64,000 nt of DNA from IMG/VR virus record IMGVR_UViG_3300024346_000008, positions 32,001 to 96,000 of that record, one strand, 5' to 3'. Shown piece after piece: positions 38,294 through 46,907 of the stretch. The notes beneath the pieces were generated by a model. That model was not told where the DNA came from. It was given only the letters and a program-made list of their open reading frames with translations, and did not search any database. Each line of letters opens with the position of its first letter. Within the stretch, counting starts at the first letter, position 1. The translations under genes were made by a program, and so were the position numbers. The stretch comes from a virus.

Positions 38294-38411
38294 TTTCAAT
38301 TCCCCAATCTTTAGCGTCTACCCACACAAGTGGATGATAAGGTATATACAGCGGATTCTGTAAAATCTCTTCCATAGTGTAACCCACTGAACTTGATACT
38401 GGATTATTCAT
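38286..38411 (-). CDS. hypothetical protein (41 aa)
   Basis: Hand-translated; ATGA overlap with dCMP deaminase stop. Confidence 0.35.
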   Translation of the reverse strand: MNNPVSSSVGYTMEEILQNPLYIPYHPLVWVDAKDWGIENE

Positions 38412-38866
38412 GGAGTATCTCCGTAAAATTCAATACTCATTCCTGCTTCAATAAACATACCCACACTACGCATTGCATGTTCGTTCCAACGAGCGTCCTT
38501 TGCGCCGGTACCCATATCATATTCTTCCATAACGATTTTTGTAATACCCGAATTAATAATGGCCCGTGCGCAATCCGCACATGGTGTTCCGCATGTCATA
38601 TACATTGTACATCCCTTCGTAGACACACCAATCCGTGCAGCATTATAAATTGCATTGCGCTCTGCGTGCTCCATCCAATAATACTTTTCAGGACGTTCCT
38701 GTCGTTCAGGCCGATAATCGTCAATTCCTCTAGGGAATGAGTTATATCCCGTGGATACAATTTCATTATCCTTGCCGACAATCACAACACCGATTTGGGT
38801 TGCTTCATCCTTAGACTTTAATTTGACCGTATGTGCTATCGCACGAAAGTATTCTTGCCAGTTCAT
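38408..38866 (-). CDS. dCMP deaminase
   Basis: STGYN, HAERNAI, PCADC. Confidence 0.93.
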   Translation of the reverse strand: MNWQEYFRAIAHTVKLKSKDEATQIGVVIVGKDNEIVSTGYNSFPRGIDDYRPERQERPEKYYWMEHAERNAIYNAARIGVSTKGCTMYMTCGTPCADCARAIINSGITKIVMEEYDMGTGAKDARWNEHAMRSVGMFIEAGMSIEFYGDTP

Positions 38867-39333
38867 AGTTTTGCTTGCTTAAGTTGTTTTTTATCTACGC
38901 CATATTTTTCACAGAGTTCCCGTAACCCATCTTTATTCTGTGTGTAGTAAATTTCTAGATAGGTGATTGCTTCCACCTTTGATACTTGATAGTATTTAGC
39001 AACTAACTCGACCAACCAGTTTTCATACTTCTCATCTTTAGAACCTTTAATGTATTTATTATATTGTTTCCCACGGGGCAATATGTTCGTAAGAAATTGA
39101 TAATGTGCCCTATCGGGAATGTTTGGATACTTCTGTAACGCATTCACGATAGGGGCATAATTTACATTCATCGAAAGAAACCGATGCATCATATATCGGG
39201 AATACTTATATTTCTTTTTATCCGTATCATTCAACCCATCAAAGAATTGTATAGACTGATCCGTTGTTACGGCGTTCAAAAAATCAAATAACTCGTTTCC
39301 TTTTTCAGATACTTCGGCTTTCTTCTTTGGCAT
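38863..39333 (-). CDS. clamp loader small subunit (T4 gp62-like)
   Basis: LFDFLN, YMMHRFLSM, HYQFL, VAKYYQVS..EA..YL. Confidence 0.75.
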   Translation of the reverse strand: MPKKKAEVSEKGNELFDFLNAVTTDQSIQFFDGLNDTDKKKYKYSRYMMHRFLSMNVNYAPIVNALQKYPNIPDRAHYQFLTNILPRGKQYNKYIKGSKDEKYENWLVELVAKYYQVSKVEAITYLEIYYTQNKDGLRELCEKYGVDKKQLKQAKL

Positions 39334-39339
39334 ATTTAA

Positions 39340-39924
39340 TTACTTTAAGTTTTTGACGGAATCTGCGAGATTATATTCCAATGCTTCTTCTGAACTTAAC
39401 CAGATATCCTGTGGCGGGAGTAACTTTTCCCGAATTATTTTCTCACTCAACTTCGTACACTTACGATAATGAGCAATCATACGCTTAGTAGTCAAATCAA
39501 ACTGTCTCTGTGTAGCGATTAGTTCATGTTCCTTCCCATAAGTTCCTGCTGCCCACTGATGTGAGAGGATAGACGTATTCGGTGTAATCAACCGACATCC
39601 AGGTTCACCAGCAATAAACGTCATGAGTCCAGCACTTGCAATCACACCCAACCCAATCGTATGAATAGGAATACTACTACCCCGCATCACATCAATCAAG
39701 GCAAATGCCGACATTAAATCGCCGCCATAACTGGTAATCATTAGCGTAAGGTTTTCAACCTTATTACTGGTCTGAAAATTACTGTCTAAAATCCACGTAA
39801 TAACATCCTTTGTAGTACTCGTATTAAATTCACTTGCGAAATAATATACGCCGTGATCGGACAATGATGGTGGACGAGTGTCCATCATAAATCCCTGTAA
39901 ATCTGGCATGTTGTTTGAAAACAT
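39340..39924 (-). CDS. clpP: ClpP-like protease subunit
   Basis: ITSYGG, IASAG (Ser), SHQ (His), DIWLSSEEALEYNLAD. Confidence 0.85.
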   Translation of the reverse strand: MFSNNMPDLQGFMMDTRPPSLSDHGVYYFASEFNTSTTKDVITWILDSNFQTSNKVENLTLMITSYGGDLMSAFALIDVMRGSSIPIHTIGLGVIASAGLMTFIAGEPGCRLITPNTSILSHQWAAGTYGKEHELIATQRQFDLTTKRMIAHYRKCTKLSEKIIREKLLPPQDIWLSSEEALEYNLADSVKNLK

Positions 39925-39925
39925 C

Positions 39926-40186
39926 TTACAGTTCTAACTTCAACTGCGACTTCGCCGGAACGTCAGCGGGGTCTGCAATCTTCACAGGCAAGAACTGCTT
40001 GTTAATAAATCCACATGCATTACATGCAAACGTTGGGATGGGAACAATAGCTTCCTTTCCAGTAGGTGATACAAGAGCAGAAACTCTCTTCATCAAAACT
40101 ACTTCCTGGAATGTATAGTTGCCGCAACTTTCGCATGTAACATCCTGTGCGTTACTTAAATCAATATTCATTGGTTGTTTGCTCAT
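39926..40186 (-). CDS. Zn-ribbon protein
   Basis: CESCG...CNACG. Confidence 0.6.
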   Translation of the reverse strand: MSKQPMNIDLSNAQDVTCESCGNYTFQEVVLMKRVSALVSPTGKEAIVPIPTFACNACGFINKQFLPVKIADPADVPAKSQLKLEL

Positions 40187-40195
40187 ATTATCTCC

Positions 40196-41110
40196 TCAAC
40201 TTGTTAAAATGGTATGTAATACTGTTATAAAATTAATTTCTTTATCAATCACTTGACTGTCCCACCGGCACCCGTCTCCAATTGCAATGATTGCTTGTGA
40301 AATTTTATTGGGGGCATATTGTTCAACATAATCAAATAATACTCGGTATAATTCGGTAAAGTCTTGAATCTGTGCGTCAGCCACAATCTTTCGAATTTCC
40401 GTAACCTTATCCTTCAAAGTCAAATTACTGGTCAGTGCATCCACGACCTTTAGTTTAACATCCTGTCCAATCAGTTCATCAACACTTACTTGCAGTTTTC
40501 CATCACGGGATTGTAACTGTGCAGTATTAATAATCTTTCTAATATCTGGATAATATACATTAACAATCTGTGCAATCGTCTTCGTATCGTATTCCACATT
40601 CTCATTTTTTAGGATATCTGCCAACTTCTTTGCCACATCCTTCTTACTAGGTGGAGTCAACTTATATACCTGCGTTCGACTCACCAGTGGGTCGATAATT
40701 CGTTCCACATAATTTGCCGTCAAAATAAATCGGGTTGATGCCGCATGAGCTTCCATCATATTACGAAGTGCCGGTTGTGCTTCTCGTCCCAAGAAGTCTG
40801 CCTCATCCAATACAACAATCTTTAAAGGTGCAAATCCAACGGTTGACGCAAATCCCTTAATCTTATCACGAACCGTATCAATGCCACGTTCGTCAGATGC
40901 GTTAATAAACATATAATCACAATCAATGTTCTTAACAAGAATTTTGGCGGCAGTCGTTTTACCAGTTCCAGCAGTTCCGTAAAACAGTAGATGTGGAATA
41001 TCCTGTGTTTGGATGTATTGTTCCAATTTTGCTTTAATTACATCATTACCGATATAGTTTTCAAGAACATCGGGTCTATACTTTTCTGTCCAAATCGTAT
41101 GTTCGTTCAC
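40196..41110 (-). CDS. clamp loader large subunit (T4 gp44/RFC-like AAA+)
   Basis: WTEKYRP, GTAGTGKT, INASDERG, LDEAD, DIRKIIN; GTG start. Confidence 0.93.
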   Translation of the reverse strand: MNEHTIWTEKYRPDVLENYIGNDVIKAKLEQYIQTQDIPHLLFYGTAGTGKTTAAKILVKNIDCDYMFINASDERGIDTVRDKIKGFASTVGFAPLKIVVLDEADFLGREAQPALRNMMEAHAASTRFILTANYVERIIDPLVSRTQVYKLTPPSKKDVAKKLADILKNENVEYDTKTIAQIVNVYYPDIRKIINTAQLQSRDGKLQVSVDELIGQDVKLKVVDALTSNLTLKDKVTEIRKIVADAQIQDFTELYRVLFDYVEQYAPNKISQAIIAIGDGCRWDSQVIDKEINFITVLHTILTS

Positions 41111-42336
41111 ACCTTTCTCCATAGCCACACTGGCTCGGCAAAAATTTTATTAACAGAGTTATCTACTCTGTCCATTGTATCGTCTGTCCATTCGTTCGGC
41201 GCACTTCCTTGTGTCACGGTTCCTGCTCCAGCACTATTCGGTCGTTTGGACATTTCCATTCCAATTGCACCTAGATATTCAAGACCCAATGATTGTAAAT
41301 GATCGTTCATAGGATTGGTAATCTCTAACCATCGTTTCTGTCCTTTCCCTGATGTAGAAAACACATCAGCAATGTTTATTGCCATAATACCACCGACTCG
41401 CATTGCTGGATAAATATTGGTTAATACTTGATGTAAGAACTTTTCATTCCACTCTTCAATAGACTTATATCGTTTAAAACTCTGAGTATCATCCGTACTA
41501 TAATGTTCTACATTAAAATATGGTGGTGAAGTGAATACTATGTCAAAGTACTCATTATACTCTGAAAAGTCAACCCCTTCCGCGGGTAATTCATAGAAAG
41601 TGGTTCTTTTATCGTTCTCAAAAAAACTACTATGTTTTACATAAAATTCTTTTTGTTTTTCATATAATGGGTGATTATCTGTATTGGGGTCCATACCAAC
41701 ATAATGTTCTGTTGTATTTGCCGCATAGAATCCTGCTAACCTATCTCCCCATCCCATTGAAAAGTCCAATACATTTTTAGATTGAAACATATCGTACAAT
41801 GACTTTGCTACATTTGGTCTGAACTGTGAGCAAGTATATTTCCGTAGATGCAAACATCCTCGCAATGTAGACTTATCAATACGAGGAACTTTTAACGTGA
41901 ACAGTGACCCCATGAGACTCACCATTGTACTCTTAGTTCTCCATGTTTTCTCGGGACCAGGCGAACGATTTGAATTTGCTTTCCAACGATTTTCTTGTTG
42001 AAAATAATTTGATGCGGCATTGCCAGTATTACTTTTTGAAAATAACATTGGGTTGTTTTCAAACAATAAAGAATAATTGGAATTCTTTGTCCGTGAAAAC
42101 CATTCCTGTTCTTTAATCCCTTCGTTCCAACGAACACTTTTTAATTGCATATAACTAGTATACGCATCTTCTTCACTGATATCATTGTAGGGAATGGCGT
42201 ACGTCATGCAAACCGTTGCCATACTTTCTTTGATATCATCTACGGAGAACGTTTTTTTAATATATTGCCATTCGTCCGCACTTATTTCTAAGTACGGAGT
42301 CATGGCTAAAAATTTATCGAAATAATTTTGATACAT
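41107..42336 (-). CDS. DNA amino-methyltransferase-like protein (SPPY)
   Basis: VLDFSMGWGDRL SAM motif I, FTSPPYF motif IV, INIAD. Confidence 0.8.
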   Translation of the reverse strand: MYQNYFDKFLAMTPYLEISADEWQYIKKTFSVDDIKESMATVCMTYAIPYNDISEEDAYTSYMQLKSVRWNEGIKEQEWFSRTKNSNYSLLFENNPMLFSKSNTGNAASNYFQQENRWKANSNRSPGPEKTWRTKSTMVSLMGSLFTLKVPRIDKSTLRGCLHLRKYTCSQFRPNVAKSLYDMFQSKNVLDFSMGWGDRLAGFYAANTTEHYVGMDPNTDNHPLYEKQKEFYVKHSSFFENDKRTTFYELPAEGVDFSEYNEYFDIVFTSPPYFNVEHYSTDDTQSFKRYKSIEEWNEKFLHQVLTNIYPAMRVGGIMAINIADVFSTSGKGQKRWLEITNPMNDHLQSLGLEYLGAIGMEMSKRPNSAGAGTVTQGSAPNEWTDDTMDRVDNSVNKIFAEPVWLWRKV

Positions 42337-44700: not shown

Positions 44701-45207
44701 CTATCTCCATTTATTAATATTGATGCGTAGTCTTTCCCAATTGAAATGGGGTCCTGGATCAATTTTTCTTCCTCTGGGAATTGCAATATCAGAATGTCCA
44801 ATAATTACTTTCGATGTAGAATCATTATATCGTGATTGTAATTGCTTTATAAGCCATCCCGCACTATTATATTGTTTTTCTGTATATGCTTCTGGTGGGT
44901 CATTTTGTAAACAAATACCAATACTATATTTATTTAATCGAAACATTCCCTTATAATAGGAAATACCTGCGTGTGAGGCTTCATACTTGGGATCGATTAA
45001 TTTAATGATAGTACCGTCGCGTTGAATATAATAATGATAACTATTTCTTTTTTTAATTAATGTTCGCCGTGTCGATTTATATGAACCACCATCATCATAA
45101 TGTAATACAATATAATTAGTGGCACCTCTTACTGTTTTCTTTACAGGTAATGGCTTATTTAATAATGTTGGTGCCAACAATTGTGCAATCAATAACATTT
45201 TTAGCAT
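44701..45207 (-). CDS. N-acetylmuramoyl-L-alanine amidase (Amidase_2) with signal-like N-terminus
   Basis: IVLH, SYHYYI.RDG, HAG, SIGICL, GHSDIA..RK.DPG. Confidence 0.88.
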   Translation of the reverse strand: MLKMLLIAQLLAPTLLNKPLPVKKTVRGATNYIVLHYDDGGSYKSTRRTLIKKRNSYHYYIQRDGTIIKLIDPKYEASHAGISYYKGMFRLNKYSIGICLQNDPPEAYTEKQYNSAGWLIKQLQSRYNDSTSKVIIGHSDIAIPRGRKIDPGPHFNWERLRININKWR

Positions 45208-45222
45208 ATATTTCTCCTATAA

Positions 45223-45345
45223 GCGGCACCAGGGGAGTCGAACCCCGCATAGATTTCTCTAAGTCCTTGGCTAGCATAGTGTGGTCATAACATTGGGGTA
45301 GCAACCCGTCCACTCCTACCGTCGTCCCGCCCGACTGTGGTGCCA
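45223..45345 (-). ncRNA. tRNA-like RNA with atypical central domain
   Basis: GGCACCA/TGGTGCC acceptor helix, GGGG-TTCGACT-CCCC T-arm, GTCG/CGAC D-like arm, TAGA-GAAA-TCTA hairpin; GC-rich intergenic. Confidence 0.65.
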
Positions 45346-45350
45346 AAATA

Positions 45351-45686
45351 TTAATTTTTGGGACGATTTAACATCTTTGATAGTTCACTTTGAAACAATG
45401 GTACTACCTTTTGAAGAATACCCTCTACAAAGTCAATCTGTGAGGCACGATATAAATTCTCATCAAATATAACAGAAATATTAATTTTACTAGCAAACGA
45501 GTTGGGGTCAAACACTCTCTCAGCTCTATAATCAAACTTCTTTTTTACTTCTCTATTTAAGTTCTCCCAACGAGCGGATAGTTCATCACGTTCTTTGGTC
45601 AACTTAGTATTATTTTCTTTGAGTAAGGCATTTTGGGCAAGTGCCCGTTCTAATTTTTCCCATATGAAATTGGTTTCTTGTCCCAT
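45351..45686 (-). CDS. hypothetical coiled-coil protein
   Basis: Coupled to ligase. Confidence 0.55.
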   Translation of the reverse strand: MGQETNFIWEKLERALAQNALLKENNTKLTKERDELSARWENLNREVKKKFDYRAERVFDPNSFASKINISVIFDENLYRASQIDFVEGILQKVVPLFQSELSKMLNRPKN

Positions 45687-46786
45687 TAAAACTCTCCTGG
45701 AAAACGGATAGACACCCCGACCGGAAAGATCGGGATGTTATCACGGCTCAGTTCTTGATAGCGAACCGTCAAATATTTACCTACCAATTCCTTACGAGTG
45801 TTGAATAGTTCCGCTCGATTGCTCTGAGTGCCTTCTGGACGGCAATTGAAACGGTTACCGTCATCTGTTTCCAAGATGAAAATAGCAAGCCCTGCATCAG
45901 AGCCAGCACCATCAACAACATCAACAATACGATATTCTGCATCGACAAAATCCTTGAGTTTAAGTAGTGAATACGAACGCTTACCAATTTCATATTCCAT
46001 CGACGGATTACGAATCATGGTTCCTTCAAATCCTTCTGACACAAATTGTGTATGCTGTTTATAGACTTCGGTTTCATCCATACACTCCACCGTCTTAACC
46101 ATAACTACATTTGGTGGGGCGTTATGCATAAGATCAATAATAATCTGCTGACGCATAGCATATGGAAGTTCATTGTCCACGATATCATATACATGATACA
46201 TGAGTAGAGGTGACAGTTCTGGACGATACTTTTTGATAGCCTTCATGCTTTCCTGCAACAACTGATTATTGGGAAGCATCAGTTCACCATCAAGAATAAA
46301 TCCACCCGTATCAAACCGAAGGTGCTGAATCACTTCGGGGATAATTTCTTTGTTGCCCCGACTCCGTGCTTCTGTACCGTTGAACAACATACGCATACCA
46401 TTCAACTTGGGTTGAATATAGGACGGCCATTCCACCTTGTTCATATGATCCTTGAACTTGTGCGCCAACATCGGCATAGGCCAGCTATCTACCTTCTCAC
46501 CTTCCCGATAGAATCCCTTATCCAACTGCTTCTTGATAATAGCATCGAACTCAAAGAACGCCTGTTCTTCACTGTTACGTTCGTTTGCCCGTCCAATGTT
46601 TGTTGGTGCGGCAAAGTACGGTTCAGACGTTTGCTTCTTGGTTTCACGGCCCGTCTTGGTCAACTGATACCATTCGGTCTGTGTGTAGAAATTGGTATCG
46701 TCTTGAAGGATATGCAACCGCCAGAACTTACGGTTACCGGCCTTGTTTTCAGAAATGAGCAGGTCACTACTTTTAATGATTTTCAT
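45686..46786 (-). CDS. ATP-dependent DNA ligase
   Basis: QPKLNGMR (KxNG), LDGEL, FEGTMIR, LLKLK. Confidence 0.93.
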   Translation of the reverse strand: MKIIKSSDLLISENKAGNRKFWRLHILQDDTNFYTQTEWYQLTKTGRETKKQTSEPYFAAPTNIGRANERNSEEQAFFEFDAIIKKQLDKGFYREGEKVDSWPMPMLAHKFKDHMNKVEWPSYIQPKLNGMRMLFNGTEARSRGNKEIIPEVIQHLRFDTGGFILDGELMLPNNQLLQESMKAIKKYRPELSPLLMYHVYDIVDNELPYAMRQQIIIDLMHNAPPNVVMVKTVECMDETEVYKQHTQFVSEGFEGTMIRNPSMEYEIGKRSYSLLKLKDFVDAEYRIVDVVDGAGSDAGLAIFILETDDGNRFNCRPEGTQSNRAELFNTRKELVGKYLTVRYQELSRDNIPIFPVGVSIRFPGEF

Positions 46787-46787
46787 A

Positions 46788-46907
46788 TTAGTTGTTAGAT
46801 TTGCAGGAACACATGCCCTGACACTTCGGGCAATCACATTCACCATAGGAATAGGCCGTACAGCGGCCTGACAACATCTGGAAGTACTTCATACAGTATT
46901 TACACAT
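46788..46907 (-). CDS. Cys-rich microprotein (39 aa, 8 Cys)
   Basis: Hand-translated MCKYCMKYFQMLSGRCTAYSYGECDCPKCQGMCSCKSNN; GAGG SD; directly after promoter. Confidence 0.6.
   Translation of the reverse strand: MCKYCMKYFQMLSGRCTAYSYGECDCPKCQGMCSCKSNN

What the first reader, a model, noticed from the sequence alone, without database searches (positions are those of the whole stretch)
45223..45345. ~123 nt tRNA-like RNA with a 4-bp T-stem and no canonical anticodon arm
Seen (minus strand): (T)GGCACCA...TGGTGCC(G) acceptor helix of 7 bp, or 8 with a U.G pair, stacked on a 4-bp GGGG/CCCC stem with a perfect TTCGACT loop. A GTCG/CGAC D-like arm is correctly spaced and a TAGA-GAAA-TCTA hairpin resembles a variable arm. 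The region between is too long for an anticodon arm and can fold as GTGG/CCAC with an inner GGGT/ACCC hairpin. No CCA is encoded. Known: 8/4 geometry is reported for allo-tRNAs. Inference: an intron-containing tRNA, allo-tRNA relative or tRNA mimic, for example a decoy for anticodon nucleases.
Basis: partly seen in the sequence, partly recalled or inferred. Interest (0 to 1): 0.72.

Follow-up and report, generated by a model that had tools for sequence, protein, structure and literature searches.

The report
Phage tRNA look-alike without anticodon
This is a real, conserved gene of an uncultured group of freshwater T4-like phages for a 121-base RNA that keeps the amino-acid-accepting end and elbow of a tRNA but cannot read codons; it matches no described RNA family and its job is still unproven.

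Summary
Window 45224-45344 (minus strand) encodes a 121-nt RNA. It has a 7-bp acceptor stem, a 4-bp D stem, and a 4-bp T stem with a canonical UUCGACU loop. A 44-nt irregular arm replaces the anticodon arm. Then come a 13-nt linker (GCUAGCCAAGGAC) and a GAAA-capped hairpin.

About 35 sequence variants occur in related phage contigs. All five helices covary: 98.8% of cells pair, against 81.6% in shuffles, and 14 of 23 pairs change on both sides. ARAGORN and Rfam find nothing.

It is not an intron-bearing tRNA, because no deletion gives the same tRNA across homologues. It is not an allo-tRNA either: the geometry is 7/4, and the eighth pair is not conserved.

The gene always follows the DNA ligase gene. 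It shares the N73-C-U trailer of the phage's own tRNA genes, so it is probably matured as a tRNA.

In about 60% of relatives, a Mom-family gene lies just downstream. Mom enzymes use glycyl-tRNA to modify DNA. This phage has no Mom gene, yet it keeps the RNA under structural selection.

My best reading is a non-decoding tRNA-like RNA that acts through its acceptor end, possibly as a private aminoacyl carrier. The function is unproven. The scan noted the same family before on other DNA (e1-5827610).

The parts
45224..45344 (-). whole tRNA-like RNA gene (121 nt, position 1 = 45344, discriminator G = 45224)
   Evidence: covariance model R1 scores 136 bits here and 55-153 bits in homologues; covariation
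45338..45344 (-). acceptor stem, 5' strand GGCACCA
   Evidence: pairs with 45225-45231; 5 of 7 pairs change on both sides in homologues (GGCAUCG/CGAUGCC, GGCGGUG/CACCGCC, AGCGGUG/CACCGCU); G2-C71 and C3-G70 are invariant
45321..45335 (-). D arm: stem GUCG/CGAC, 7-nt loop GGCGGGA carrying the GG of the elbow
   Evidence: stem variants GUUG/CAAC, GACU/AGUC, GGUU/AACC, GAUU/AAUC; 100% paired
45276..45319 (-). long irregular arm in place of the anticodon arm: GUAG-GA-GUGG ... CCAC-A-CUAU, with a small tip hairpin (GGG/CCC, loop holding invariant GCUA) and a single-stranded 3' bulge holding invariant GUUA
   Evidence: helix variants AUAGUAUG/CAUACUAU, AUAAUGUG/CACAUUAU, GUAGUAAA/UUUACUAC, GUGGUAA/UUACCAU, CUAAUAGA/UCUAUUAG; tip loop length varies from 5 to 7 nt, so it is not an anticodon loop
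45263..45275 (-). single-stranded linker GCUAGCCAAGGAC, the most conserved part
   Evidence: identical in all 17 hits of a pattern search that did not include it. The only variants are GCUAACCAAGGAC (L324) and GCUACGCCAAGGA (L244, L327), from loci found through protein anchors. No complementary site in the 164-kb phage genome
45250..45261 (-). variable-arm-like hairpin UAGA-GAAA-UCUA
   Evidence: covaries (UAGG/CCUA, CUAGGU/GCCUAG, CUAGGA/UCCUAG); loop is GAAA, GAGA, GAACA or UAAU; the hairpin is absent from the 102-104-nt short forms, so it is dispensable
45232..45246 (-). T arm: 4-bp stem GGGG/CCCC, loop UUCGACU
   Evidence: stem variants UGGG/CCCA, GGAG/CUCC, GGGG/CCUC; the 3' strand of the stem runs straight into the acceptor strand, which gives the 7/4 geometry
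45225..45231 (-). acceptor stem, 3' strand UGGUGCC
   Evidence: see the 5' strand
45222..45223 (-). 3' trailer C-U directly after the discriminator
   Evidence: C-U follows N73 in 30 of 31 variants and in 9 of 18 parsed tRNA genes of the same phage; genome-wide CT frequency is 5.3%
44701..45207 (-). downstream gene: Amidase_2 endolysin with a hydrophobic N-terminus; start codon 17 nt after the RNA
   Evidence: PF01510 2e-26, endolysin PHROGs. This slot holds a Mom-family gene in most relatives
45686..46846 (-). upstream anchor gene: ATP-dependent DNA ligase
   Evidence: PF01068 + PF14743; all 12 loci fetched through this protein carry the RNA downstream
45351..45686 (-). 111-aa ORF of unknown function between ligase and RNA; its stop codon is 6 nt before the RNA
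   Evidence: no family match; present in only part of the relatives

Best explanation
Shown: this is a functional gene for a non-decoding tRNA-like RNA. It has a complete tRNA 'top half' (acceptor stem, T arm, and D arm with the elbow nucleotides). Its 'bottom half' is rebuilt and cannot present an anticodon. The family is restricted to one uncultured lineage of freshwater T4-like phages. The gene sits at a fixed place, after the DNA ligase gene and at the head of a variable island of DNA-modification and accessory genes.

Inferred: the RNA is cut out of the polycistronic transcript by the tRNA maturation machinery. That means RNase P at the 5' end, cleavage after N73, and completion of CCA by the host enzyme, as for the phage's own CCA-less tRNA genes. 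It then acts through its acceptor end and elbow, away from the ribosome's decoding site.

The most likely job is a private aminoacyl carrier for tRNA-dependent transferases. I put this at about 0.3 on its own. In most relatives the candidate client is the Mom-family GNAT encoded just downstream, whose family uses glycyl-tRNA to modify adenine in DNA. This window's phage has lost or never had Mom, so here the RNA must also have a Mom-independent role.
For: - Structure is under selection: 98.8% of cells pair and 14 of 23 pairs show double changes. Compensatory changes also occur inside the Mom-less subgroup, for example window GGCACCA/UGGUGCC with GUCG/CGAC against L005 GGCAUCG/CGAUGCC with GACU/AGUC.
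- The T loop (UUCGAAU or UUCGACU) and the D-loop GG are canonical.
- tRNA-type processing is suggested by the N73-C-U trailer, present in 30 of 31 variants and in half of the phage's own tRNA genes, against a 5.3% background. The RNA is also packed tightly between genes: the upstream stop codon is 6 nt before it and the downstream ribosome-binding site a few nt after it.
- It cannot decode. There is no 7-nt anticodon loop, the tip loop is 5-7 nt long, and ARAGORN finds 0 genes.
- The 11-bp acceptor/T stack departs from the 12 bp of elongator tRNAs. From general knowledge, this should disfavour EF-Tu.
- Link to Mom: 33 of 55 RNA loci have a PF25680 gene within 1.6 kb downstream, many only 8-30 nt away. 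Two Mom clades with only 26-29% identity both sit directly 3' of the RNA. Mom transfers glycine from Gly-tRNAGly to dA (PMC13219725).
- Weak hint: the only variable position in the linker lies just before an invariant CCAA (G, A or CG). This reads like N34-C35-C36-A37-A38 of a tRNA-Gly anticodon loop; the phage's own tRNA-Gly loop is UUUCCAA.
Against: - The window's phage record (164 kb, about 90% complete) has no Mom by Pfam search, tblastn or a custom HMM, yet it keeps the RNA.
- Closely related Mom genes (68-72% identity) in other phages lie in other contexts with no tRNA or tRNA-like gene nearby. Of 80 Mom-anchored loci, only one carries this RNA.
- The adjacency could therefore reflect an insertion hot spot. 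Amidase, N6-methyltransferase, DUF2452, FG-GAP and WD40 genes occupy the same slot.
- The loci are phylogenetically related, so 33 of 55 is not 33 independent events.
- No aminoacylation identity is evident. The discriminator varies (A 24, G 4, U 3). The acceptor pairs G1-C72, G2-C71 and C3-G70 differ from the bacterial glycine set (G1-C72, C2-G71, G3-C70, U73; from general knowledge). There is no G3.U70.
- The linker lies near the core of the molecule, not where an anticodon would be.
- There are no expression data.
Confidence: 0.4

Rival explanations
1. A cis-acting 'punctuation' and recombination element. The tRNA-like fold recruits RNase P and the 3' processing enzymes. This cuts the replication-gene transcript from the accessory-gene transcript and gives the downstream gene a short, translatable leader. 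The conserved sequence also serves as a homology anchor for swapping downstream cassettes. The excised RNA itself would have no job.
For: - The downstream gene's ribosome-binding site starts 4-8 nt after N73-C-U, whichever gene sits there (Mom, amidase, DUF2452, the unnamed 296-aa gene, WD40).
- The slot is hypervariable.
- Chimeric acceptor stems in L007/L218 and L190 show recombination inside the RNA gene.
- No promoter or terminator signal above chance separates the genes.
Against: RNase P needs only the acceptor/T minihelix. That would not explain the near-invariant linker, the conserved GCUA and GUUA motifs, or the covarying long arm kept in all forms, including the short ones.
Confidence: 0.2
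2. A decoy or sponge. As an abundant tRNA look-alike, it soaks up a host factor that acts on the tRNA acceptor end or elbow. Candidates are a defence toxin that acetylates, extends, pyrophosphorylates or cleaves tRNA 3' ends, or another RNA-binding protein that recognises the linker (AAGGA resembles a CsrA or Shine-Dalgarno-type motif).
For: - The function is independent of Mom, because the RNA is kept under selection in the Mom-less phage.
- The top half is intact and there is an invariant single-stranded motif.
- Phage tRNAs are known counter-measures to tRNA-targeting defences (general knowledge).
Against: No candidate target has been identified. There is only a single GGA site. Without an anticodon loop it cannot distract anticodon nucleases, which are the best-known class. 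There is no expression or abundance evidence.
Confidence: 0.15
3. An intron-containing or otherwise decodable tRNA (allo-tRNA, tRNA-Sec-like or suppressor) that becomes a working adaptor after processing.
For: - A weak tRNA-Sec match of 13.5 bits, E 7.9.
- ARAGORN with introns calls tRNA-Ser(ACU) in two homologues at relaxed settings.
- In some variants CUAG/CUAG could close a CCAAGGA loop.
Against: - The calls are inconsistent between homologues: Ser-GGA, Ser-ACU, Thr-CGU, His-GUG, or none.
- The putative loop has C33 and no closing stem in the window group, L324 or the short forms.
- The competing hairpin covaries instead.
- The inserted arm is itself under structural selection.
- No bacterial splicing route for such an insert is known.
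Confidence: 0.03
4. A decaying tRNA pseudogene or a chance structure.
For: The single-sequence folding energy is no better than shuffles. One lineage (L183/L208) lost the 5' half to a WD40 gene insertion.
Against: There are about 35 variants with compensatory changes in every helix, and the central motifs are invariant.
Confidence: 0.01

Closest known systems
Bacteriophage T4 species 1 RNA (rnaC, 139 nt) and species 2 RNA (rnaD, 119 nt)
   Same: Both are small RNAs of T4-type phages, annotated as stable, of similar size and of unknown function. rnaC has a GGGUUCGAAUCCCGG T arm followed by an acceptor-like 3' strand, and it lacks an anticodon arm.
   Different: There is no detectable sequence or structure homology; model R1 finds nothing in the T4 locus. 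The T4 RNAs lie inside the tRNA gene cluster, whereas this RNA is solitary in the replication module, 50-75 kb from the phage's tRNA genes. rnaC has a 5-bp T stem.
Non-proteinogenic tRNA-Gly of Staphylococcus (glycine donors for the FemXAB transferases), and host Gly-tRNAGly used by phage Mu Mom (PMC13219725)
   Same: These are tRNA-shaped carriers used off the ribosome by transferases of the GNAT fold or a GNAT-like fold. A Mom-family gene lies directly downstream of this RNA in most relatives.
   Different: Those are true tRNAs, with an anticodon arm and glycine identity elements. This RNA has neither a proper anticodon arm nor the glycine acceptor set, charging is untested, and this window's phage has no Mom.
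tmRNA tRNA-like domain
   Same: It has an acceptor stem plus T arm, and a long helix takes the place of the anticodon arm. Weak Rfam tmRNA match on the short form (12.4 bits, E 0.3).
   Different: This RNA has no G3.U70, a real D stem, no tag reading frame and no pseudoknots. It is about 120 nt rather than more than 300. ARAGORN in tmRNA mode finds nothing.
Allo-tRNAs (8/4 and 9/3 tRNAs; Mukai et al. 2017, PMC5389517, listed but not read here)
   Same: A shortened 4-bp T stem, a long variable arm, and occurrence in phages and metagenomes.
   Different: Allo-tRNAs keep a 12-bp acceptor/T stack and a normal anticodon arm. This RNA has 11 bp and no anticodon arm.
Bacterial Y-RNA-like YrlA
   Same: A non-coding RNA with a tRNA-like T arm, D arm and elbow module, also found in phages (PMC4201824, listed but not read here).
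   Different: From general knowledge, YrlA has its ends in the Ro-binding stem and is linked to an rsr gene. Here the ends are at the acceptor stem. No Rfam match.

Membership tests
canonical tRNA (Rfam RF00005 / ARAGORN) | cloverleaf with a 5-bp anticodon stem and a 7-nt loop carrying U33 and an anticodon | tested here: not met
   ARAGORN finds 0 genes in the window. No Rfam tRNA hit even at E <= 10. The arm at that position is 44 nt with a 5-7-nt tip loop.
canonical tRNA (Rfam RF00005 / ARAGORN) | 7-bp acceptor stem, T arm with a TPsiC-type loop, D arm with G18 G19 | tested here: met
   The T stem is 4 bp rather than 5.
intron-containing tRNA | removing one segment yields the same canonical tRNA in all homologues | tested here: not met
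   ARAGORN -i and 6,771 deletions in 5 homologues give a different anticodon, or none, in each.
allo-tRNA | 12-bp acceptor/T stack arranged as 8/4 or 9/3 | tested here: not met
   The stack is 7/4. The candidate eighth pair is U.G, U-A, C.A, A.G, A.A or U.U across homologues.
allo-tRNA | functional anticodon arm | tested here: not met
tRNA-Sec | 8/5 (bacterial) 13-bp stack, 6-bp D stem, UCA anticodon | tested here: not met
   RF01852 scores 13.5 bits against a gathering score of 47. The D stem is 4 bp and there is no UCA loop.
tmRNA | G3.U70 alanine identity, tag reading frame, pseudoknots | tested here: not met
   C3-G70 is invariant. ARAGORN -m finds none. RF00023 scores 12.4 bits against a gathering score of 47.
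T4 rnaC / rnaD | sequence or structure homology to the T4 RNAs | tested here: not met
   R1 finds no match in T4 locus L179 at E <= 1. No T4-family hit by blastn.
Mom co-substrate tRNA (aminoacyl donor) | genomic linkage to a PF25680 gene | tested here: inconclusive
   Met in 33 of 55 homologous loci, involving two Mom clades. Not met in this window's genome.
Mom co-substrate tRNA (aminoacyl donor) | 3' CCA end charged with glycine; used by Mom | not testable with these tools
   Needs biochemistry. Going by general knowledge of glycine identity, the acceptor pairs and discriminator do not match the set.
any Rfam 15 family | score at or above the gathering threshold | tested here: not met
   0 matches in the window. 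Nothing significant in 4 homologous loci.

The most novel reading that the evidence does not exclude
The RNA is a purpose-built aminoacyl carrier that has been stripped of decoding ability. A host synthetase charges it, perhaps by recognising the NCCAA motif in the linker as a glycine anticodon mimic. The 11-bp acceptor/T stack and the missing anticodon arm keep it away from EF-Tu and the ribosome. Phage tRNA-dependent transferases such as Mom then use it to hypermodify DNA. The phage would thus bring its own private donor pool instead of draining host tRNA.
Probability: 0.25. Interest if true: 0.85.

Novelty: new variant of a known kind. Interest (0 to 1): 0.64.

Why it matters
tRNA look-alikes that do not decode are rare, and each known class (tmRNA, YrlA, the cell-wall tRNA-Gly species) revealed a distinct piece of biology. 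The two comparable T4 RNAs have been known for decades, and to my knowledge still have no assigned function.

This family gives a clean, covariation-backed case. It has an invariant single-stranded motif that can be mutated, and a concrete candidate partner: the Mom enzymes, recently shown to take glycine from charged tRNA to modify DNA.

If the link holds, phage DNA hypermodification would have its own dedicated RNA cofactor. If it does not, the RNA still marks a recombination and processing hub at the head of a DNA-modification island, and it deserves an Rfam entry.

Tried and rejected
- **Rfam and ARAGORN.** Rfam at gathering and at E <= 10, and ARAGORN for tRNA and tmRNA: no family.
- **Intron hypothesis.** Rejected.
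- **Pseudoknot** between the tip-loop GCUA and the linker UAGC. Both are invariant in most variants, but L324 changes the linker to UAAC with no compensating change. Weakened, not pursued.
- **Alternative helix GGUAG/CUACC** proposed by RNAalifold. It is broken (A.C) in one whole subgroup, while the long helix covaries, so I rejected it in favour of the long arm.
- **Linker as antisense guide.** No complementary site with up to 2 mismatches in the 164-kb genome.
- **RegA-binding site.** The window's AAUGUUAUGA resembles the T4 RegA SELEX consensus aaAAUUGUUAUGUAA (PMC3014915). However, no RegA is found in the genome or next to gp62 (the genome-search control did not ring), and only GUUA is conserved. 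Rejected.
- **Descent from a tRNA-Leu** placed after a ligase, as in Microcystis phage Mel-JY01. That 'RNA ligase' is unrelated to this DNA ligase and the tRNA is ordinary.
- **Similarity to the phage's own 21 tRNAs.** None share the acceptor stem.
- **Bacterial genomes.** A pattern scan gave 9 stretches, none matching the model. The family looks phage-only.
- **Cultured phages.** No relative found; ligase identity is at most 32%.
- **Private tRNA at Mom loci.** The earlier notes' claim that Mom genes generally travel with a private tRNA-Gly-like RNA could not be reproduced with ARAGORN plus a strict canonical-T-loop scan on 80 Mom loci. 7 had a tRNA within 2.5 kb, and 1 was a tRNA-Gly 40 nt upstream. 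Non-canonical forms would have been missed.
- **Recalled 8-mer matches** to E. coli 4.5S RNA. Not checked against a real sequence and not supported by Rfam, so dropped.

Full report
**What is there**

On the minus strand, window 45344 to 45224 reads as follows:
- GGCACCA, then CA
- GUCG-GGCGGGA-CGAC, then G
- a 44-nt segment
- GCUAGCCAAGGAC, then U
- UAGA-GAAA-UCUA, then UGC
- GGGG-UUCGACU-CCCC
- UGGUGCC, then G, followed by CUU

The stretch is about 59% G+C in a region of 30-40% G+C. It lies between a 111-aa ORF, whose stop codon is 6 nt upstream, and an Amidase_2 endolysin gene, whose start codon is 17 nt downstream.

The surrounding genes are the replication module of a T4-like phage:
- family B DNA polymerase
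- ATP-dependent DNA ligase
- sliding clamp
- clamp loader subunits
- a TET-associated glycosyltransferase

The window is part of a 163,934-bp virus record, estimated to be 90% complete. The nearest named phage by polymerase is Microcystis phage Mel-JY01, at 45% identity. The closest ligase among cultured phages is at most 32% identical. The lineage is therefore uncultured.

**Is it real?**

ARAGORN finds no tRNA or tmRNA in the window, and Rfam 15 finds nothing. The single sequence folds no better than shuffles. The evidence that it is real comes from comparison with homologues.
- All 12 loci fetched through the neighbouring ligase protein carry a homologue just downstream of the ligase gene. 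One of these is cut by a contig end.
- Pattern searches in IMG/VR and in metagenomes added many more loci.
- Covariance model R1 scores them at 55-153 bits. None of nine pattern hits in 185,579 prokaryotic genomes matches the model.

In all there are about 35 distinct variants.

On 31 of them, 98.8% of pair cells are standard pairs, against 81.6% in column shuffles. 14 of 23 pairs change on both sides. Versions with one strand shifted along the alignment pair at only 36-53%. One caveat: that alignment was fitted to the model.

Examples of variants:
- Acceptor stem: GGCACCA/UGGUGCC, GGCAUCG/CGAUGCC, GGCGGUG/CACCGCC, AGCGGUG/CACCGCU.
- D stem: GUCG/CGAC, GUUG/CAAC, GACU/AGUC, GGUU/AACC, GAUU/AAUC.
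- T stem: GGGG/CCCC, UGGG/CCCA, GGAG/CUCC.

**Anatomy**

The top half is a textbook tRNA. It has a 7-bp acceptor stem, a two-nucleotide connector, a 4-bp D stem with a loop that carries GG, and a T loop of UUCGAAU or UUCGACU.

Two things are unusual.

First, the T stem has only 4 pairs, and its 3' strand runs straight into the acceptor strand. The coaxial stack is therefore 11 bp, not 12.

Second, a long irregular arm replaces the anticodon arm. It has these parts:
- An 8-10-bp helix that covaries extensively: GUAG..GUGG/CCAC.CUAU, AUAGUAUG/CAUACUAU, AUAAUGUG/CACAUUAU, GUAGUAAA/UUUACUAC, CUAAUAGA/UCUAUUAG.
- A small tip hairpin whose loop is 5-7 nt long and always contains GCUA.
- A single-stranded 3' bulge that always contains GUUA.

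After the arm comes the most conserved element, the linker GCUAGCCAAGGAC.
- It was identical in all 17 hits of a search pattern that did not include it.
- In loci reached through protein anchors, it varies only at the base or bases just before CCAAGGA: G, A or CG.

The hairpin that follows covaries. Its loop is not always of the GNRA type, and the whole hairpin is missing from a 102-104-nt short form (L244, L327). It is therefore dispensable.

**What it is not**

Intron-bearing tRNA:
- With introns allowed, ARAGORN returns nothing for the window at default settings.
- At relaxed settings it returns different anticodons for different homologues.
- 6,771 brute-force deletions give no consistent product.

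Other known classes:
- Allo-tRNA and tRNA-Sec fail on stack length and on the missing anticodon arm.
- tmRNA fails on C3-G70, the presence of a D stem, and the absence of a tag.
- T4 rnaC and rnaD are the nearest known class: small RNAs of a T4-type phage, annotated as stable and of unknown function, and rnaC has a canonical T arm. The model finds no homology to them.

**How it is probably made**

The RNA is wedged between coding regions with no promoter or terminator signal above chance. It must therefore be cut out of a longer transcript.

In 30 of 31 variants the discriminator is followed by C-U. The same N73-C-U signature follows 9 of the 18 tRNA genes of this phage that I could parse. The genomic CT frequency is 5.3%.

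None of these genes encodes CCA. I infer RNase P cleavage at the 5' end, cleavage or trimming after N73, and CCA completion by the host enzyme. This is inference, not observation.

**What it might do**

In most relatives the next gene, or the one after it, belongs to the Mom family (PF25680).
- 33 of 55 RNA-bearing loci have a Mom gene within 1.6 kb, and often within 8-30 nt.
- Two Mom clades with only 26-29% identity both sit directly after the RNA.

Mom of phage Mu has recently been shown to transfer glycine from Gly-tRNAGly to N6 of adenine in double-stranded DNA. The authors infer recognition focused on the tRNA's 3' end (PMC13219725). That paper does not mention phage-encoded tRNA-like RNAs.

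A non-decoding tRNA look-alike at the head of Mom genes is therefore an obvious candidate for a private aminoacyl carrier. One weak hint goes the same way: the linker reads N-C-C-A-A, and only N varies, like positions 34-38 of a tRNA-Gly anticodon loop.

**Against the Mom reading**

- The window's own phage has no Mom gene by three methods. Its RNA is followed by an endolysin, and ten further loci share that arrangement. Even so, compensatory changes continue within this subgroup, so a Mom-independent function must exist.
- Mom genes 68-72% identical to the linked ones sit elsewhere in other phages, often as tandem paralogues and with no tRNA-like gene nearby.
- Among 80 Mom-anchored loci, only one has this RNA.
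- The slot after the RNA also holds an N6-methyltransferase, DUF2452, FG-GAP and other genes. In one lineage a WD40 gene insertion destroyed the RNA's 5' half.
- Chimeric acceptor stems (L007/L218, L190) show recombination within the RNA gene. The adjacency may therefore be that of an insertion hot spot.
- The discriminator varies, and the acceptor pairs do not match the glycine identity set. That set is taken from general knowledge and was not tested here.

**Verdict**

I am confident, at about 0.9, that this is a functional, non-decoding tRNA-like RNA gene of a new family. Maturation by the tRNA machinery is likely, at about 0.7.

For function, my estimates are:
- acceptor-end use off the ribosome, as a private aminoacyl carrier: about 0.3
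- a pure processing and recombination element: about 0.2
- a decoy for factors that target the acceptor end: about 0.15
- something not yet imagined: the remainder

**Earlier notes from this scan**

The scan had already noted a 119-nt member of this family in another genome (e1-5827610), with the same tentative link to Mom. I reached the Mom link from the Pfam result and the literature before reading that note. It agrees with my reading but is not independent evidence.

Noticed in passing
L183:2769-2875 and L208:2386-2492: A GC-rich gene for a 681-aa protein, whose C-terminal translation reads like a WD40 repeat (by eye, no family search), ends inside the RNA gene and has replaced its 5' half. 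Only the 3' half of the RNA, from CCCGAGGUUACAAG onward, survives. This shows the RNA can be lost and that the site takes up foreign DNA.
   Followed up: partly
L007:6969-7089 / L218:7606-7726 and L190:10097-10215: The acceptor stems are chimeric: the 5' strand comes from one variant and the 3' strand from another, giving 2-3 mismatches. This is evidence of recombination inside the RNA gene between co-circulating phages.
   Followed up: no
L237:3407-8263 and L240:3334-5379: Other T4-like phages carry three or four Mom-family paralogues (30-70% identical) between the DnaB helicase and ribonucleotide reductase genes: tandem in L240, two adjacent pairs separated by the reductase gene in L237. No tRNA gene is nearby.
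   Followed up: partly
window 44701-45207 (-): The Amidase_2 endolysin has a hydrophobic N-terminus (MLKMLLIAQLLAPTLL...), as in signal-anchor-release endolysins. It sits unusually inside the replication module, in the slot that holds Mom in relatives. L003 has RNA, then Mom, then amidase.
   Followed up: partly
G000 1-25 kb (outside the window; ARAGORN): The phage has 21 tRNA genes. Some are odd: a 70-72-nt tRNA-Gly(UCC) with acceptor strand GCAUGUG and U73, a tRNA-Ser called with anticodon ACU, and a tRNA-Ile(UAU). About half carry the N73-C-U trailer and none encodes CCA.
   Followed up: partly
L155:6481-6569, L155:7399-7481, L075:1425-1543: Weak matches to model R1 (19-32 bits) lie inside dense tRNA arrays of unrelated phage contigs, at places where ARAGORN calls no gene. 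They may be other non-canonical tRNAs or tRNA-like genes.
   Followed up: no
window 38408-41128 (-): Clamp loader gp44 is separated from gp62 by a ClpP-like protease gene and an 86-aa zinc-ribbon ORF. gp62 is followed by a dCMP deaminase gene. No RegA gene was found where T4-like phages normally have one.
   Followed up: partly
L316:1686-1756: An ordinary-looking tRNA-Gly(UCC) lies 40 nt upstream of a Mom-family gene in an unrelated viral contig. It is one of 7 Mom loci (out of 80) with a tRNA within 2.5 kb.
   Followed up: no
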